The translations under genes were made by a program, and so were the position numbers. The notes under the pieces are model-generated. The model saw nothing but the letters and a program-made list of their open reading frames with translations. It was not told the origin of the DNA and searched no databases. Below, piece by piece: positions 2,952-62,961 of a DNA stretch of 64,000 bases. Position 1 is the stretch's first letter. Each line of letters starts with the position of its first letter. Source of the DNA: Escherichia coli (GTDB taxonomy: Bacteria; Pseudomonadota; Gammaproteobacteria; Enterobacterales; Enterobacteriaceae); assembly GCF_003334815.1 (NCBI RefSeq), contig NZ_QOWO01000012.1, one strand, 5' to 3'.

Positions 2952-3191
2952 TGTAAAGCATCCACAATAGAAGAAGGATGCCGCAGGTTTCATCAATATT
3001 ACGCGATGATGAGAACCAGATGCGACGTTGGCCGGCAGGTCTTCGGGCTTGGAGGGGTATCTAAGATACTAAGAGATGATGACTTCCCACCGAATGGCAG
3101 TGTCCGCATAACGCAATCATCGCACCTTTCCTTACCGCTGCGCGTCAGCTCCAGATTCGCACTGGATTCCCTATTAACTCACAGGACCGGC
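2952..3191 (-). ncRNA. Adenosylcobalamin riboswitch (btuB 5' leader)
   Basis: About 240-nt leader upstream of btuB on the minus strand matching the recalled btuB leader (GCCGGTCCTGTGAGTTAATAGGGAATCCAGTGCGAATCTGGAGCTGACGCG...); element continues into the first btuB codons. Confidence 0.85.
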
Positions 3192-3319
3192 AAGTGGATG
3201 CTACAGGTTGTAACAAGTTACTGTCCAGACGTAGCTCACAAATAGGAATTCATCAAGATCTGGACATCTGATGAGCAATCCCTACAATCGCCGCGTACTT
3301 TAATTTTTCAGGATACATC

Positions 3320-8119: not shown

Positions 8120-8170
8120 CGATAGTTCATGGCGATAGGTAGAATAGCAATGAACGATTATCCCTATCAA
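8120..8170. promoter_or_regulatory. OxyR binding region (oxyR/oxyS divergent promoters)
   Basis: Repeated ATAG elements (8122, 8135, 8144) and CTAT (8165), spaced as in OxyR operators, between oxyR start and oxyS. Confidence 0.6.
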
Positions 8171-8195: not shown

Positions 8196-8304
8196 GAAAC
8201 GGAGCGGCACCTCTTTTAACCCTTGAAGTCACTGCCCGTTTCGAGAGTTTCTCAACTCGAATAACTAAAGCCAACGTGAACTTTTGCGGATCTCCAGGAT
8301 CCGC
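8196..8304 (+). ncRNA. oxyS: OxyS small regulatory RNA
   Basis: Sequence GAAACGGAGCGGCACCTCTTTTAACCCTTGAAGTCACTGCCCGTTTCGAGAGTTTCTCAACTCGAATAACTAAAGCCAACGTGAACTTTTGCGGATCTCCAGGATCCGC matches recalled OxyS; divergent from oxyR; ends in a hairpin plus T8. Confidence 0.9.
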
Positions 8305-8312
8305 TTTTTTTT
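8286..8312 (+). terminator. Intrinsic terminator of oxyS
   Basis: Stem GCGGATC/GATCCGC followed by TTTTTTTT. Confidence 0.8.
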
Positions 8313-24245: not shown

Positions 24246-26747
24246 ATGGCCCTGATTGTGGAATTTATTTGTGAGCTACCTAACGGCGTACATGCGCGTC
24301 CGGCAAGCCACGTTGAAACGCTGTGTAATACTTTTTCATCACAAATTGAGTGGCATAACCTGCGCACTGACCGCAAGGGCAACGCCAAAAGCGCCCTTGC
24401 GCTGATTGGCACCGATACGCTGGCGGGCGATAACTGCCAGTTACTGATTTCCGGGGCCGACGAACAGGAAGCGCACCAGCGTTTAAGCCAATGGCTGCGC
24501 GATGAATTCCCCCACTGCGATGCGCCGCTGGCGGAAGTTAAATCTGACGAACTGGAACCACTGCCGGTTTCACTGACCAATCTGAATCCGCAAATTATCC
24601 GCGCCCGCACCGTGTGCAGCGGTAGTGCAGGCGGCATTCTGACGCCGATCTCTTCTTTAGATCTCAATGCGCTGGGTAATCTTCCCGCAGCCAAAGGCGT
24701 TGACGCCGAGCAATCCGCACTGGAAAACGGCCTGACGCTGGTACTGAAAAACATTGAGTTTCGTCTGCTGGATAGCGACGGTGCTACCAGCGCGATTCTG
24801 GAAGCTCACCGATCCCTGGCTGGCGATACTTCCCTGCGCGAACATTTACTGGCAGGCGTCAGCGCCGGATTAAGCTGCGCCGAAGCAATTGTTGCCAGCG
24901 CGAATCACTTTTGCGAAGAGTTTTCCCGTTCCAGCAGCAGCTACCTGCAAGAACGTGCCCTGGACGTACGCGACGTCTGCTTCCAGTTACTCCAGCAAAT
25001 CTACGGTGAGCAACGCTTCCCGGCACCGGGCAAACTGACGCAGCCCGCCATTTGTATGGCTGATGAACTGACCCCCAGCCAGTTCCTCGAACTGGATAAA
25101 AATCACCTCAAAGGATTGTTGCTCAAAAGCGGCGGCACCACCTCACATACGGTGATCCTTGCCCGTTCGTTCAACATTCCAACGCTGGTTGGTGTGGATA
25201 TTGATGCCCTTACTCCGTGGCAGCAACAAACGATTTATATCGACGGCAACGCCGGGGCGATTGTGGTTGAGCCAGGGGAAGCCGTAGCTCGTTATTATCA
25301 GCAAGAAGCCCGCGTACAGGACGCCCTGCGTGAGCAACAGCGTGTCTGGCTGACCCAACAAGCCCGTACCGCTGACGGTATCCGCATTGAAATTGCCGCT
25401 AACATCGCTCACTCCGTGGAAGCGCAGGCCGCATTCGGCAATGGTGCGGAAGGCGTTGGTTTGTTCCGCACTGAAATGCTCTATATGGATCGCACCAGCG
25501 CACCGGGCGAAAGCGAGTTGTACAACATTTTTTGTCAGGCGCTGGAATCCGCCAACGGACGCAGCATTATTGTGCGCACTATGGACATTGGCGGCGACAA
25601 ACCCGTTGATTATCTGAACATTCCCGCAGAGGCAAACCCGTTCCTCGGTTATCGCGCCGTGCGTATTTATGAAGAGTACGCGTCGTTGTTTACCACGCAG
25701 CTACGGTCGATCCTCCGCGCCTCCGCTCACGGCAGCCTGAAAATCATGATCCCGATGATCTCCTCAATGGAAGAGATCTTATGGGTGAAAGAAAAACTGG
25801 CGGAAGCCAAACAGCAACTACGTAACGAACACATTCCGTTTGATGAGAAAATCCAGCTCGGCATCATGCTGGAAGTGCCGTCGGTGATGTTCATCATCGA
25901 TCAATGCTGCGAAGAGATTGATTTCTTTAGTATTGGTAGTAATGACCTGACGCAGTATCTGCTGGCGGTGGATCGCGATAACGCTAAGGTTACTCGTCAC
26001 TACAACAGCCTGAATCCGGCATTCTTGCGGGCGCTCGATTACGCCGTGCAAGCGGTGCATCGCCAGGGCAAATGGATTGGTCTGTGCGGTGAGCTGGGAG
26101 CGAAAGGTTCCGTGCTGCCGTTGCTGGTCGGCTTAGGGCTGGATGAACTCAGCATGAGCGCACCATCAATTCCGGCGGCGAAAGCTCGGATGGCGCAACT
26201 TGATAGCCGTGAGTGCCGCAAGTTGCTCAACCAGGCAATGGCCTGCCGTACTTCGCTGGAAGTGGAACACCTGCTGGCGCAATTCCGCATGACCCAACAA
26301 GACGCACCGCTGGTCACCGCCGAGTGCATCACACTGGAAAGCGACTGGCGCAGCAAAGAAGAAGTGCTCAAAGGCATGACCGATAACCTGCTGCTGGCGA
26401 GCCGCTGCCGCTATCCGCGTAAACTGGAAGCCGACTTGTGGGCGCGCGAGGCCGTTTTCTCTACCGGTCTGGGCTTTAGTTTTGCCATTCCACACAGCAA
26501 ATCAGAACACATTGAGCAATCCACCATCAGCGTGGCGCGTCTGCAAGCGCCGGTGCGCTGGGGCGATGATGAAGCGCAATTCATCATTATGTTAACCCTG
26601 AACAAACACGCTGCGGGCGATCAGCATATGCGCATTTTCTCGCGCCTCGCTCGCCGCATCATGCACGAAGAATTCCGTAACGCGCTGGTTAACGCCGCCT
26701 CTGCCGACGCTATCGCCAGCCTGCTGCAACATGAACTGGAACTGTAA
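24246..26747 (+). CDS. ptsA: Multiphosphoryl transfer protein (HPr-like, Enzyme I-like and EIIA-like domains)
   Basis: 833-aa ORF; N-terminal HPr-like region with HARPA, central Enzyme I (PEP-utilising) domain, C-terminal EIIA-Fru-like domain. Confidence 0.93.
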
Positions 26748-27431: not shown

Positions 27432-28535
27432 ATGGACCGCATTATTCAATCACCGGGTAAATACATCCAGGGCGCTGATGTGATTAATCGTCTGGGCGAA
27501 TACCTGAAGCCGCTGGCAGAACGCTGGTTAGTGGTGGGTGACAAATTTGTTTTAGGTTTTGCTCAATCCACTGTCGAGAAAAGCTTTAAAGATGCTGGAC
27601 TGGTAGTAGAAATTGCGCCGTTTGGCGGTGAATGTTCGCAAAATGAGATCGACCGTCTGCGTGGCATCGCGGAGACTGCGCAGTGTGGCGCAATTCTCGG
27701 TATCGGTGGCGGAAAAACCCTCGATACTGCCAAAGCACTGGCACATTTCATGGGTGTTCCGGTAGCGATCGCACCGACTATCGCCTCTACCGATGCACCG
27801 TGCAGCGCATTGTCTGTTATCTACACCGATGAGGGTGAGTTTGACCGCTATCTGCTGTTGCCAAATAACCCGAATATGGTCATTGTCGACACCAAAATCG
27901 TCGCTGGCGCACCTGCACGTCTGTTAGCGGCGGGTATCGGCGATGCGCTGGCAACCTGGTTTGAAGCGCGTGCCTGCTCTCGTAGCGGCGCGACCACCAT
28001 GGCGGGCGGCAAGTGCACCCAGGCTGCGCTGGCACTGGCTGAACTGTGCTACAACACCCTGCTGGAAGAAGGCGAAAAAGCGATGCTTGCTGCCGAACAG
28101 CATGTAGTGACTCCGGCGCTGGAGCGCGTGATTGAAGCGAACACCTATTTGAGCGGTGTTGGTTTTGAAAGTGGTGGTCTGGCTGCGGCGCACGCAGTGC
28201 ATAACGGCCTGACCGCTATCCCGGACGCGCATCACTATTATCACGGTGAAAAAGTGGCATTCGGTACGCTGACGCAGCTGGTTCTGGAAAATGCGCCGGT
28301 GGAGGAAATCGAAACCGTAGCTGCCCTTAGCCATGCGGTAGGTTTGCCAATAACTCTCGCTCAACTGGATATTAAAGAAGATGTCCCGGCGAAAATGCGA
28401 ATTGTGGCAGAAGCGGCATGTGCAGAAGGTGAAACCATTCACAACATGCCTGGCGGCGCGACGCCAGATCAGGTTTACGCCGCTCTGCTGGTAGCCGACC
28501 AGTACGGTCAGCGTTTCCTGCAAGAGTGGGAATAA
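27432..28535 (+). CDS. gldA: Glycerol dehydrogenase
   Basis: ORF 27393..28535 trimmed to [14 protein letters not shown]; iron-containing alcohol dehydrogenase family ([12 protein letters not shown]). Confidence 0.95.
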
Positions 28536-28543
28536 CCTACTCC

Positions 28544-28569
28544 AAACTCCCGGCTTGTCCGGGAGTTTG
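28544..28569 (+). terminator. Putative terminator hairpin after gldA
   Basis: Stem CAAACTCCCGG / CCGGGAGTTTG with a 6-nt loop, 8 nt past the gldA stop; no strong T-run, so may be a stabiliser rather than a terminator. Confidence 0.5.
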
Positions 28570-28580
28570 AACGCAAAATT

Positions 28581-28679
28581 GCCTGATGCGCTACGCTTAT
28601 CAGGCCTACGCAATCTCTGCAATATATTGAATTTGCGTGCTTTTGTAGGCCGGATAAGGCGTTCACTCCGCATCCGGCA
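28581..28679. repeat. BIME (inverted REP pair)
   Basis: GCCTGATGCGCTACGCTTATCAGGCCTAC ... GTAGGCCGGATAAGGCGTTCACTCCGCATCCGGCA; near-identical to the copy after metJ. Confidence 0.85.
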
Positions 28680-28809
28680 CTCTGTGCCAGTAATCTGAAA
28701 CTCCCACGTTGTTCAGGAATTTTTTATCCGCTTCTGGACATTTTCTCTACAGAACAATCGTTAGCCCGGAAGGTCGAATCTGTGACTCTTATTTTCACGG
28801 ACGAACCAG

Positions 28810-29427
28810 ATGAAAGCTTCACTGGCGCTGCTCAGCCTGCTAACGGCATTTACCAGCCACTCCTTAAAATCTCCCGCCGTTCCACCAACCGTGGTACAAA
28901 TCCAGGCCAATACCAACCTTGCCATCGCAGACGGTGCCAGACAGCAAATTGGCAGCACGCTATTTTACGATCCGGCGTATGTGCAGCTTACTTATCCTGG
29001 CGGTGATGTTCCGCAAGAACGCGGTGTATGTTCCGATGTGGTGATCCGCGCATTGCGCAGCCAGAAGGTCGATTTGCAGAAACTGGTTCACGAAGATATG
29101 GCGAAGAATTTTGCTGAGTACCCGCAAAAATGGAAGTTAAAGCGCCCGGACAGCAACATCGATCACCGTCGGGTGCCTAATCTGGAAACCTGGTTTAGCC
29201 GCCATGATAAAACACGCCCCACCAGCAAGAACCCCAGTGACTATCAAGCGGGCGATATTGTCTCCTGGCGACTGGATAACGGGCTGGCACATATTGGGGT
29301 GGTTTCAGATGGCTTCGCCCGCGACGGTACGCCGCTGGTGATACATAACATTGGCGCAGGCGCGCAGGAAGAAGATGTGCTGTTTAACTGGCGGATGGTG
29401 GGGCATTATCGTTATTTTGTTAAATAA
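28810..29427 (+). CDS. yijF: DUF1287-family uncharacterised protein
   Basis: 205-aa ORF with N-terminal signal peptide (MKASLALLSLLTAFTSHS); recognised as YijF. Confidence 0.8.
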   Translation: MKASLALLSLLTAFTSHSLKSPAVPPTVVQIQANTNLAIADGARQQIGSTLFYDPAYVQLTYPGGDVPQERGVCSDVVIRALRSQKVDLQKLVHEDMAKNFAEYPQKWKLKRPDSNIDHRRVPNLETWFSRHDKTRPTSKNPSDYQAGDIVSWRLDNGLAHIGVVSDGFARDGTPLVIHNIGAGAQEEDVLFNWRMVGHYRYFVK

Positions 29428-29453
29428 GAGATCGCCCCACATGAAGAAAAAAT

Positions 29454-30359
29454 TCAGATCCTTTTTACACTGACGGCTTCTTTTTTCTTACGGCTCACCA
29501 GCGCCAGTGCCAGCACAATCAGCACAATACCGCTACCTTCAACGGCCCCCGGATTCTCGCCGAGCAGCCACCAGGAAAAGAGTACGCCGCAAACGGGAAC
29601 GGCCAGTGTGCTTAAGCTGGCAATACTGGCAGGCAAGTTTTTCAATACAAACAACCATAAGCTCCACGCCAGTGCCGTCGCCAGAATCGCACTGTAGGCC
29701 AGCGCCCAGAACACGGTGGGCTGCCAGTCAATTTCACGTTGCGGCACCAGTAAAGCGACCACACTCATCACCAGCGCCGCATACAGCATCTGCCAGGATG
29801 TTAACGACAATAAATCCACGCGCGGATGACGGGCATACAGACGTTTAGCAACAATCGCGCTCGCCCCCCAACTGACGCCGGAGAGGATTGCCAGCATGGC
29901 ACTTTTCATCGAAGAGAAATCGAGTTGCCACGGCTGCAACACCAAAAATAAGCCGAAAGCGGCAATCAGAATCGCGAAATATTGCCCACGTCGCAGGCGT
30001 TCACCGAGAAACAACGCGGCGAAAATCACCACCCAGAACGGCATGGTATAGCTCAGGATCGCCACCTTCCCCGCACCTCCGCTGACCAACGCCCACTGCG
30101 CCAGACCAACCATCCCGCAGGTTTGTAACAGGGCAATGGCTAAGGTGTATTTAAACGGTGTCGGGCGCATTCCGCGACCACGTAATAAAAGGACGATGAA
30201 TAAAACGAGAGCGCCGAAAATGCAGCGTAAGGCGGTAAAGTCGAAGGCACCGATGTAACTGGTGACTTGCTTCATGAAAATCCAGCTATAACTCCAGATA
30301 AGTGTGAGCACAACCAGGCCACTGATTGCCAGTGGGTTGCTCTTTCCTGCGGCAGACAT
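29454..30359 (-). CDS. yijE: EamA/DMT-family inner-membrane transporter
   Basis: ORF 29454..30392 trimmed to MSAAGKSN; ten predicted TM helices in a duplicated EamA arrangement. Confidence 0.85.
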
Positions 30360-30451
30360 GAGAGATCCAGTGTGTAGTTTTCGTTCGCCCACTATACGCT
30401 GGTAAAGAACGTTCAGCGACTGCCAGCAAGCAGCCGCTGAACGGGGTCAGA

Positions 30452-32686
<2,235 letters not shown>

Positions 32687-32960
32687 TTATAATTGAATTA
32701 ATCCACGGATGCGATAGTTGAGATCTTACATATTGTTGGTTAAAGAGATGTAGATCAAATTGATCTTAATTAAGCTTTTTTGATTATGTCCGAATTCGGA
32801 CAAATGCTTTATAAAAAAGGGTTTTAGCTTCATATCCTTCAAGTAATGAGGGAGAAAACAAGGCTGATAACCTTATTTTCCCGCCCTCATTTCGAGGCAG
32901 CATTTTGTGCTCTGTTTAAAATTTGTGATCACTGTGTGATTTTCACAAAAGCCACACTAT

Positions 32961-33854
<894 letters not shown>

Positions 33855-33908
33855 TTACCTCATCAATCGCTTGTAGTTATATGTTGTGTTGTGCACATCT
33901 ATCCGTTT

Positions 33909-57798: not shown

Positions 57799-57897
57799 GC
57801 CGGATGCGGCGCGAACGCCTTATCCGGCCTACAAAAGTTTGCAAATTCAATAAATTGCAGAATTCATGTAGGCCTGATAAGCGAAGCGCATCAGGCA
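57799..57897. repeat. BIME (inverted REP pair)
   Basis: GCCGGATGCGGCGCGAACGCCTTATCCGGCCTACA ... GTAGGCCTGATAAGCGAAGCGCATCAGGCA. Confidence 0.85.
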
Positions 57898-62865: not shown

Positions 62866-62880
62866 ACTTCGCATTTGCAG

Positions 62881-62961
62881 GCAGGATAAGGCGTTTACGC
62901 CGCATCCGGCATTTGAGCAGGATGCCTGATGCGACGCTGATAGCGTCTTATCAGGCCTACA
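62881..62961. repeat. BIME (inverted REP pair)
   Basis: GCAGGATAAGGCGTTTACGCCGCATCCGGCA ... GCCTGATGCGACGCTGATAGCGTCTTATCAGGCCTACA. Confidence 0.85.

What the first reader, a model, noticed from the sequence alone, without database searches (positions are those of the whole stretch)
28810..30359. Uncharacterised secreted DUF1287 protein and EamA transporter next to katG
yijF (signal peptide, DUF1287) and yijE (ten-helix EamA/DMT exporter) lie between the frw locus and katG. yijE is convergent with yijF and co-directional with katG just downstream of it. An exporter adjacent to an OxyR-regulated catalase is suggestive of a role in thiol or redox metabolite export, but that is inference from position alone.
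Basis: inference. Interest (0 to 1): 0.3.

Follow-up and report, generated by a model that had tools for sequence, protein, structure and literature searches.

The report
Known E. coli yijF and yijE genes
These are two ordinary, already catalogued E. coli core genes: yijE, a membrane exporter already published as a cystine exporter and induced by peroxide, and yijF, a secreted enzyme-like protein with a cell-wall-hydrolase fold whose substrate is still unknown.

Summary
yijF is at 28810..29427 (+): 205 aa, signal peptide, DUF1287. yijE is at 29454..30359 (-): 301 aa, two EamA domains, ten hydrophobic segments. They are convergent, and yijE lies 92 bp downstream of katG on the same strand. All 5426 complete E. 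coli genomes carry the region.

The exporter is not uncharacterised. RefSeq names it "cystine transporter YijE". EcoCyc lists it as a cystine exporter (Yamamoto 2015). Published RNA-seq shows about 12-fold induction 10 min after H2O2, against about 31-fold for katG.

The positional argument is weak:
- No OxyR-like site lies upstream of yijE (best 9/20; the oxyS and katG sites score 16 and 14).
- A strong katG terminator hairpin and a conserved yijE -10 box (TATAGT) lie between the genes.
- katG is absent within 6 kb of yijE in about 37 of 55 usable orthologous loci.
- Salmonella keeps yijF and katG without yijE.

About 3% read-through of the katG terminator would account for the peroxide induction. 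That is my inference.

YijF is predicted to be a periplasmic NlpC/P60-fold hydrolase with an invariant Cys74-His161-His179 triad. Its substrate is unknown.

Overall the finding is ordinary and of low interest.

The parts
28810..29427 (+). yijF coding sequence, 205 aa. DUF1287 protein, predicted periplasmic NlpC/P60-fold cysteine hydrolase.
28810..28863 (+). Predicted Sec signal peptide of YijF (MKASLALLSLLTAFTSHS, cleavage after Ser18). No lipobox cysteine.
   Evidence: Read from the sequence: Lys2, a hydrophobic core and small residues at -3 and -1. It is the only hydrophobic segment in the protein. All 26 aligned homologues have a hydrophobic N-terminus. Cleavage was not tested with a dedicated predictor.
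29029..29031 (+). Codon of Cys74, the only cysteine in YijF and the predicted catalytic nucleophile.
   Evidence: Invariant in 26 homologues of 53-70% identity. Aligns with the catalytic Cys of MepS in hhalign. PMC10318531 lists DUF1287 among families with a CHH triad.
29290..29292 (+). Codon of His161 (motif HIGVV), the predicted catalytic histidine.
   Evidence: Invariant. Aligns with the HVGIY histidine of MepS.
29344..29346 (+). Codon of His179 (motif VIHNIG), the predicted third triad residue.
   Evidence: Invariant. The position corresponds to the third His of the NlpC/P60 Cys-His-His triad. This mapping is an inference, because the hhalign alignment ends before it.
29454..30359 (-). yijE coding sequence, 301 aa. 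Ten-segment DMT/EamA-family transporter, published as a cystine exporter.
   Evidence: ORF. Two EamA domains. Ten hydrophobic segments. RefSeq name 'cystine transporter YijE'. EcoCyc table.
30391..30396 (-). Predicted -10 hexamer (TATAGT) of yijE's own promoter, 32 to 37 nt before the ATG, with no good -35.
   Evidence: GTATAGT, usually preceded by a further G, is conserved upstream of yijE in nearly all enterobacterial orthologous loci, whether the upstream gene is katG, metF or something else. The simple promoter scan did not call it because the -35 is poor.
30410..30443 (-). katG intrinsic-terminator hairpin (15 pairs, 4-nt loop), followed by a weak T tract, TTCTTT, at 30404..30409.
   Evidence: Terminator scan. 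Inverted repeat I5. RNA fold of the 96-nt spacer: -37.8 kcal/mol, z=-4.5.
30452..32632 (-). katG (catalase-peroxidase HPI, 726 aa), the upstream neighbour.
   Evidence: ORF. RefSeq annotation.
32692..32728 (.). OxyR-consensus match in the katG promoter. It is the only OxyR-like site near this locus and served as a positive control.
   Evidence: 14 of 20 consensus positions, the third-best site in the 64-kb window.

Best explanation
The interval holds two independent, already annotated core genes of E. coli.

(1) yijE encodes an inner-membrane transporter of the drug/metabolite transporter (DMT) superfamily. It has two EamA repeats and ten hydrophobic segments. Published genetics implicates it in cystine (or cyst(e)ine) efflux. 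It most likely acts like its characterised relatives, as a secondary exporter that lowers the cytoplasmic load of a sulfur amino acid.

It has its own weak promoter (-10 TATAGT, no -35) just downstream of the katG terminator. It is induced about 12-fold by H2O2. I infer that this induction comes from partial read-through of the katG terminator when OxyR fires the katG promoter, from the cysteine surge that follows peroxide stress, or from both. It does not come from an OxyR site of its own.

(2) yijF encodes a Sec-exported periplasmic protein of family DUF1287. It adopts the NlpC/P60 papain-like fold and keeps an invariant Cys74-His161-His179 triad. It is most likely an active cysteine amidase or peptidase acting on a cell-envelope peptide such as a peptidoglycan stem peptide. 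The substrate is not known.

The two genes are not functionally coupled to each other. The link of yijE to katG is local to Escherichia and a few relatives.
For: Identity and ubiquity:
- 100% identity to RefSeq E. coli, present in 5426 of 5426 genomes, annotated as yijF 'DUF1287 domain-containing protein' and yijE 'cystine transporter YijE'.

YijE:
- Two EamA domains and ten hydrophobic segments. The two halves match each other weakly (26% identity, E=0.02).
- EcoCyc lists it as a 'Cystine exporter', citing Yamamoto 2015.
- H2O2 induction: logFC -3.59, p=4e-58, in a table where katG is -4.96, eamA -4.21 and fliY -2.12. A second study reports yijE up after H2O2.
- Own promoter: GTATAGT, usually preceded by a further G, is conserved about 30 nt before the ATG across genera with different upstream genes.

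Read-through:
- The hairpin at 30443..30410 is strong but has a poor T tract.
- From the logCPM values (katG 13.5, yijE 7.5) and the fold changes, about 3% read-through per base would account for the whole induction. This is my arithmetic and 68 data.
- The fold changes fall off along the direction of transcription: katG 31x, yijE 12x, yijF 2x, gldA 0.5x.

YijF:
- Pfam DUF1287. Invariant C74, H161 and H179.
- AlphaFold pLDDT 86.6. Top Foldseek hits are MepS/Spr and other NlpC/P60 proteins.
- hhalign maps C74 and H161 onto the MepS catalytic Cys and His.
- PMC10318531 places DUF1287 in the NlpC/P60-CHAP-amidase group with a CHH triad.

Independence of the genes:
- Salmonella has gldA-yijF-katG-metF without yijE.
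- Klebsiella has metF-yijE-gldA without katG or yijF. Several Citrobacter have katG-yijE without yijF.
Against: - As far as I recall the abstract, the cystine-exporter assignment rests on growth phenotypes and induction, not on transport assays. I could not read the primary paper.
- Imported cystine is reduced at once to cysteine, and the Imlay laboratory identified AlaE as the exporter that relieves cystine over-import. The true substrate of YijE may therefore not be cystine.
- The read-through model is arithmetic on one RNA-seq table. I do not know whether the library was strand-specific, and there is no oxyR mutant control.
- My OxyR scan is a consensus count with low power. The chance expectation for a 15/20 site in the window is about 0.6.
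- YijF activity is inferred only from fold and conservation. The Pfam NLPC_P60 model does not match YijF.
- Fusion partners of longer DUF1287 proteins gave no peptidoglycan-binding domain: FG-GAP repeats and a weak SH3_3 at E=0.16.
- Gene neighbourhoods of DUF1287 are variable.
Confidence: 0.72

Rival explanations
1. yijE is a direct member of the OxyR regulon, with its own OxyR binding site in the katG-yijE spacer.
For: yijE is induced about 12-fold by H2O2 at 10 min, together with classic OxyR targets. It sits next to katG.
Against: The best match to the OxyR consensus in 30360..30451 is 9 of 20. About 3% of all positions in the window reach that score, whereas the oxyR/oxyS and katG sites score 16 and 14. 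The 92-bp spacer is largely taken up by the katG terminator hairpin and the -10 box. Nothing upstream of the -10 box is conserved across genera.
Confidence: 0.08
2. YijE's physiological substrate is not cystine. It exports reduced cysteine, or another small metabolite, and the cystine phenotypes are indirect. It could act as a second exporter in a cysteine/cystine periplasmic shuttle like EamA(YdeD)-FliY.
For: Over-imported cystine is rapidly reduced to cysteine in the cytoplasm, and AlaE is the exporter shown to relieve it. The paralogue YdeD/EamA exports cysteine as periplasmic reducing equivalents against H2O2. eamA and yijE are both strongly H2O2-induced. YijE gives weak, below-cutoff matches to several amino-acid exporter models.
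Against: The curated databases name cystine. No transport data for any other substrate were found in the papers searched.
Confidence: 0.35
3. yijF and yijE form a functional pair. For example, YijF would process in the periplasm what YijE exports.
For: They are adjacent, with 26 bp between the stop codons, in Escherichia and Pseudocitrobacter. Both rise after H2O2, yijF only about 2-fold.
Against: They are convergent and so cannot be co-transcribed. Salmonella keeps yijF without yijE. Klebsiella, Kluyvera, most Citrobacter, Hafnia, Edwardsiella, Morganella and Aeromonas keep yijE without yijF nearby. None of the DUF1287 genes looked at in other phyla has an EamA neighbour.
Confidence: 0.04
4. 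YijF is a catalytically inactive binding protein, like the DUF1175 family of the same structural group, rather than an enzyme.
For: No activity has ever been shown. The Pfam NLPC_P60 model does not match. PMC10318531 notes an inactive peptidoglycan-binding family, DUF1175, in the same group.
Against: Cys74, His161 and His179 are invariant across 26 homologues of 53-70% identity drawn from several phyla. That is the pattern expected of an active triad.
Confidence: 0.15

Closest known systems
YijE of E. coli K-12 (cystine exporter; Yamamoto et al. 2015, Biosci Biotechnol Biochem 79:218)
   Same: It is this gene. The sequence is 100% identical to RefSeq WP_001271242.1, 'cystine transporter YijE', which EcoCyc lists as a cystine exporter.
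   Different: Nothing differs. The window is an ordinary E. coli chromosome.
EamA (YdeD), the O-acetylserine/cysteine exporter of the cysteine/cystine shuttle
   Same: Same Pfam family (EamA, PF00892) and the same ten-segment DMT architecture. Both are sulfur amino-acid exporters and both are strongly H2O2-induced.
   Different: YijE is not an orthologue. It scores 36 bits against NF008523, whose cutoff is 472. The substrate claimed for YijE is the disulfide cystine, not cysteine or O-acetylserine.
MepS (Spr) and other NlpC/P60 peptidoglycan endopeptidases
   Different: No significant sequence match exists: no Pfam NLPC_P60 hit, and hhalign gives probability 6% and E=0.006. YijF has a family-specific insertion of about 35 residues carrying the invariant NIDHRRVPN motif, and an invariant N-terminal D54/Y57/Y62-P-x-G-D66 segment. 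It is a soluble protein with a signal peptide, not a lipoprotein.
DUF1460 N-acetylmuramoyl-L-alanine amidase (BACUNI_02947; PDB 4h4j, 4q5k)
   Same: Papain-like fold with a Cys-His-His triad, in the same structural group in PMC10318531. Foldseek query-normalised TM 0.45 to 0.49.
   Different: A different Pfam family, with 9-11% identity in the structural alignment. Its amidase activity cannot be transferred to YijF.

Membership tests
DMT superfamily, EamA family (Pfam PF00892) | Two tandem EamA domains | tested here: met
   PF00892 matches residues 12-141 (E=8.5e-23) and 152-289 (E=1.6e-24).
DMT superfamily, EamA family (Pfam PF00892) | Ten transmembrane helices arising from an internal 5+5 duplication | tested here: met
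   Ten hydrophobic segments by Kyte-Doolittle hydropathy. The two halves align at 26% identity, E=0.02. No dedicated topology predictor was available.
EamA/YdeD O-acetylserine/cysteine exporter equivalog (NCBIfam NF008523) | Score above the curated cutoff of 472 bits | tested here: not met
   36.3 bits. YijE is a paralogue, not an orthologue. The scores against YedA, YddG and TIGR00950 are also below their cutoffs.
Cystine exporter YijE (RefSeq/EcoCyc) | Sequence identity to the characterised E. coli K-12 protein | tested here: met
   100% nucleotide identity to RefSeq genomes that annotate WP_001271242.1 as cystine transporter YijE.
Cystine exporter YijE (RefSeq/EcoCyc) | Demonstrated cystine efflux | not testable with these tools
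   Only the literature bears on this: the EcoCyc table citing Yamamoto 2015. The primary paper is not held.
OxyR regulon | OxyR binding motif (four ATAG-type elements, Toledano consensus) in the gene's own upstream region | tested here: not met
   Best 9 of 20 in 30360..30451, against 16 of 20 for oxyR/oxyS and 14 of 20 for katG in the same window.
OxyR regulon | Induction by H2O2 | tested here: met
   Published RNA-seq: logFC -3.59 (up in H2O2), p=4e-58. Also reported up in PMC12238033.
OxyR regulon | Dependence of that induction on oxyR | not testable with these tools
   No oxyR-mutant data for yijE were found in the papers searched.
DUF1287 (Pfam PF06940) | Full-length match to the family model | tested here: met
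   E=3.9e-74, model positions 2-163 of 163.
NlpC/P60-like papain-fold hydrolases (clan CA) | NlpC/P60 fold | tested here: met
NlpC/P60-like papain-fold hydrolases (clan CA) | Conserved Cys-His-(His/polar) catalytic triad | tested here: met
   C74, H161 and H179 are invariant in 26 homologues. C74 and H161 align with the MepS catalytic residues. The three-dimensional geometry of the triad was not measured.
NlpC/P60 family in the strict sense (Pfam PF00877) | Match to the PF00877 model | tested here: not met
   No PF00877 hit for YijF at E up to 10; only a weak CHAP hit at E=0.0027. A distant DUF1287 homologue gives PF00877 at E=0.62.
NlpC/P60-like papain-fold hydrolases (clan CA) | Hydrolase activity on a peptidoglycan peptide | not testable with these tools
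   No experimental report was found. PMC10318531 calls the family 'of unknown function'.

The most novel reading that the evidence does not exclude
In Escherichia, katG and yijE behave as a conditional OxyR-driven unit. When OxyR fires the katG promoter, a few per cent of transcripts pass the weak-T-tract terminator at 30410..30443 and raise yijE about 12-fold. A cyst(e)ine exporter is thereby coupled to catalase, and YijE becomes a second export arm of the periplasmic cysteine/cystine anti-peroxide shuttle alongside EamA. Separately, YijF would be the founding characterised member of a widespread family (about 3000 clusters at 50% identity) of periplasmic Cys-His-His hydrolases with a substrate different from that of the classic NlpC/P60 enzymes.
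Probability: 0.3. Interest if true: 0.35.

Novelty: already known. Interest (0 to 1): 0.13.

Why it matters
It matters little as a discovery.

Three small open points remain:
- How peroxide induces yijE when it has no OxyR site. Read-through from katG is a cheap hypothesis to test.
- Whether YijE really moves cystine rather than cysteine. This bears on models of cysteine homeostasis and on engineering cysteine production.
- What the DUF1287 hydrolase YijF acts on. The family is widespread (2976 representative clusters at E up to 0.001) and has no solved structure or known substrate.

Tried and rejected
- **OxyR site upstream of yijE:** scanned and rejected.
- **Sigma-70 consensus scan:** found no promoter for yijE. 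The -10 box emerged only from the cross-genus alignment.
- **Activator site upstream of the -10 box:** nothing conserved appeared in the alignment.
- **Conserved neighbours of yijE orthologues outside Escherichia:** none. Contexts differ in Aeromonas, Morganella, Edwardsiella/Hafnia and Citrobacter.
- **Conserved neighbours of DUF1287 genes:** none in six loci.
- **Domain fusions of long DUF1287 proteins:** FG-GAP repeats, a tandem DUF1287 and a non-significant SH3_3. Uninformative.
- **Sequence search of the PDB:** nothing for YijF, as a single sequence or as a profile (the FlgE hits at E about 0.06 are chance). Nothing for YijE either.
- **NCBIfam:** no model for YijF, and only below-cutoff paralogue models for YijE.
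- **Rfam:** no RNA family in or next to the interval.
- **Repeats in 28400..30600:** only the katG terminator hairpin is meaningful.
- **Primary papers:** Yamamoto 2015 and Korshunov 2020 are not held.
- **Literature on yijF:** nothing functional. [quoted passage not shown]

Full report
**Observation**

The window is an E. coli chromosome segment. The 1761 bases 28700..30460 are 100% identical to many RefSeq genomes. They are present in 5426 of 5426 complete E. coli genomes, in 5425 at 80% coverage or more.

- yijF: 28810..29427 (+), 205 aa.
- yijE: 29454..30359 (-), 301 aa.
- katG: 30452..32632 (-).

RefSeq annotates the order frwB-frwC / ptsA-fsaB-gldA-yijF / yijE-katG-metF. yijF and yijE are convergent, with 26 bp between their stop codons. 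yijE starts 92 bp after the katG stop codon on the same strand.

Pfam gives DUF1287 for YijF (E=3.9e-74) and two EamA domains for YijE. Hydropathy gives ten hydrophobic segments in YijE and one N-terminal hydrophobic segment in YijF. That segment has the shape of a Sec signal peptide, MKASLALLSLLTAFTSHS|LK, with no lipobox (and direct reading).

**yijE is already known**

RefSeq names the product "cystine transporter YijE". The EcoCyc 2017 paper lists yijE as a "Cystine exporter", citing Yamamoto et al. [quoted passage not shown] I could not read that paper. From memory of its abstract, the evidence is threefold: induction by cystine, suppression of cystine toxicity on overexpression, and hypersensitivity of the knockout. 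That is genetic evidence, not a transport assay.

YijE is a paralogue, not an orthologue, of the other E. coli DMT amino-acid exporters. Its NCBIfam scores against TIGR00950, YedA, EamA/YdeD and YddG are all far below the curated cutoffs. No solved structure is detectable by sequence.

(a) Peroxide induction. Table S1 of PMC9026346 compares control with H2O2 at 10 min. Negative logFC means higher in H2O2, as shown by the suf genes, oxyS, dps, grxA and trxC. The values are:

| gene | logFC | note |
|---|---|---|
| katG | -4.96 | logCPM 13.5 |
| yijE | -3.59 | p=4e-58, logCPM 7.5 |
| eamA | -4.21 | |
| fliY | -2.12 | |
| alaE | -0.80 | |
| yijF | -1.04 | |
| gldA | +0.91 | |

So yijE is induced about 12-fold. 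A second study also reports yijE up after H2O2.

(b) An OxyR motif. I counted matches to the 20 specified positions of the Toledano consensus at every position of the window.
- The oxyR/oxyS site at 8122..8158 scores 16 and ranks first. Rfam places OxyS at 8196..8305.
- The katG promoter site at 32692..32728 scores 14 and ranks third.
- The best site in the yijE spacer scores 9, a value that about 3% of all positions reach.

The scan has low power, but the positive controls behave correctly and the yijE spacer is at background.

**What lies between katG and yijE**

A 15-pair hairpin (30443..30410) follows the katG stop codon and is followed by TTCTTT. The 96-nt spacer folds at -37.8 kcal/mol with z=-4.5. 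This is the katG terminator, and its U tract is weak.

I aligned the upstream regions of 17 yijE orthologues. GTATAGT, usually preceded by a further G, sits about 30 nt before the ATG in nearly all Enterobacteriaceae, whether the upstream gene is katG, metF or an unrelated gene. In the window the TATAGT is at 30396..30391 on the - strand. So yijE has its own promoter. It has no recognisable -35, and no further upstream motif is conserved.

**A read-through explanation (inference)**

From the logCPM values and fold changes, the induced yijE signal per base is about 3.5% of the induced katG signal. About 3% read-through of the katG terminator would therefore account for the whole induction. The fold changes fall off along the direction of transcription: katG 31x, yijE 12x, yijF 2x, gldA 0.5x. 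If the library is not strand-specific, that decay is what read-through would produce.

Alternatively, or in addition, the yijE promoter may respond to the cysteine and cystine perturbation that follows H2O2. The same paper reports up-regulation of the cysteine regulon, and yijE is cystine-inducible.

**Synteny**

A scan of one genome per species returned 57 loci with YijE relatives, 55 of them close orthologues (73-100% identity) with usable flanks. I ran tblastn with the window's neighbouring proteins against them.
- metF-katG-yijE-gldA occurs in Escherichia, some Citrobacter, Pluralibacter, Yokenella and Pseudocitrobacter.
- Kluyvera has metF-yijE-katG, with the order swapped.
- Klebsiella and Intestinirhabdus have metF-yijE-gldA with no katG.
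- Other Citrobacter, Hafnia, Edwardsiella, Morganella and all Aeromonas have no katG within 6 kb. Their contexts are unrelated to one another.
- In total about 37 of the 55 usable loci have no katG within 6 kb.
- yijF is next to yijE only in Escherichia and Pseudocitrobacter.
- Salmonella has gldA-yijF-katG-metF with no yijE.

The three genes are therefore gained and lost independently at a variable spot. Adjacency to katG is not a conserved functional signal.

**yijF**

An exhaustive search of 50%-identity representatives returned 2976 at E up to 0.001.

In 26 homologues of 53-70% identity from several phyla, the following are invariant:
- the single cysteine, C74 (GVC-x-DV);
- G148-D149 (GDIVSW);
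- H161 (HIG);
- H179 (IHN).

This is the motif order of NlpC/P60 enzymes. The family also has its own invariants: D54, Y57, Y62-P-x-G-D66, and N-I-D-H-R-R-V-P-N at 116-124.

I checked my recalled MepS sequence against PDB 8xud. hhalign against it places C74 on the MepS catalytic Cys and H161 on its catalytic His, with a family-specific insertion of about 35 residues between them.

A 2023 classification of papain-like enzymes independently lists DUF1287 as a family of unknown function in the NlpC/P60-CHAP-amidase group, with a predicted CHH triad.

Sequence searches of the PDB found no solved relative. Gene neighbourhoods and domain fusions gave no clue to the substrate. I conclude that YijF is probably an active periplasmic cysteine amidase or peptidase acting on an envelope peptide, with the substrate unknown.

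**Caveat on the substrate of YijE**

Over-imported cystine is reduced at once to cysteine, and AlaE is the exporter shown to relieve that stress. The paralogue EamA/YdeD exports cysteine to the periplasm as an anti-peroxide reductant, with FliY-YecSC re-importing the cystine. YijE may therefore physiologically export cysteine or a related compound.

**Verdict**

The function and the peroxide response are already published; the OxyR-site and positional reasoning are not supported.
- Novelty: already known.
- Interest: low.

Noticed in passing
window 33866..33902 (upstream of metF, whose ATG is at 33851 on the - strand): This is the second-best match to the OxyR consensus in the whole window (15 of 20), between the oxyS site (16) and the katG site (14). 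A binomial estimate gives about 0.6 such sites per 64 kb by chance. metF is also absent from the stored, truncated part of the H2O2 differential-expression tables. It is probably a chance match.
   Followed up: partly
window 28545..28679 (gldA-yijF spacer): A gldA terminator hairpin (AAACTCCCGG-CTTGT-CCGGGAGTTT, about 28545..28569) is followed by two REP-type palindromic units, at 28581..28609 and 28645..28679. Together they look like an ordinary BIME. This was recognised by eye from the sequence and not tested further.
   Followed up: no
RefSeq hits H1-H4 (e.g. NZ_CP047010.1), at the position corresponding to window 29454..30359: In several pig and human E. coli isolates yijE is split by an IS1B insertion. 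The annotation shows 'cystine transporter YijE | IS1-like element | EamA family transporter'. yijE is therefore dispensable in nature.
   Followed up: no
protein clusters P0007, P0010, P0037, P0038: Many E. coli assemblies carry truncated YijF products of 129 to 167 aa, in clusters of 120 to 180 member sequences. This suggests recurrent disruption of yijF, or alternative start calls, in some lineages.
   Followed up: no
locus L001 1548..4048 (NZ_CP030240.1), corresponding to window 24246..26747: ptsA, annotated there as ptsP, is marked frameshifted in strain ER1709. In the window it is an intact 833-aa ORF.
   Followed up: no
loci L019, L020, L025, L051 (Kluyvera): The gene order is metF-yijE-katG-gldA, so yijE lies upstream of katG rather than downstream. 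This shows local rearrangement or independent insertion of katG at this spot.
   Followed up: partly
window 8196..8305, 3017..3206, 44125..44182, 39461..39513, 62880..62957, 57834..57875, 38440..38481: Rfam matches elsewhere in the window: OxyS sRNA, a cobalamin riboswitch, the ClpQY (hslVU) promoter element, an L31 leader, naRNA4 and two ES036 copies. All are expected for this part of the E. coli chromosome.
   Followed up: no
protein P0130 (998 aa, metagenomic): This DUF1287 homologue has two tandem DUF1287 domains followed by seven FG-GAP repeats. The architecture is unusual for this family and its meaning is unknown.
   Followed up: no
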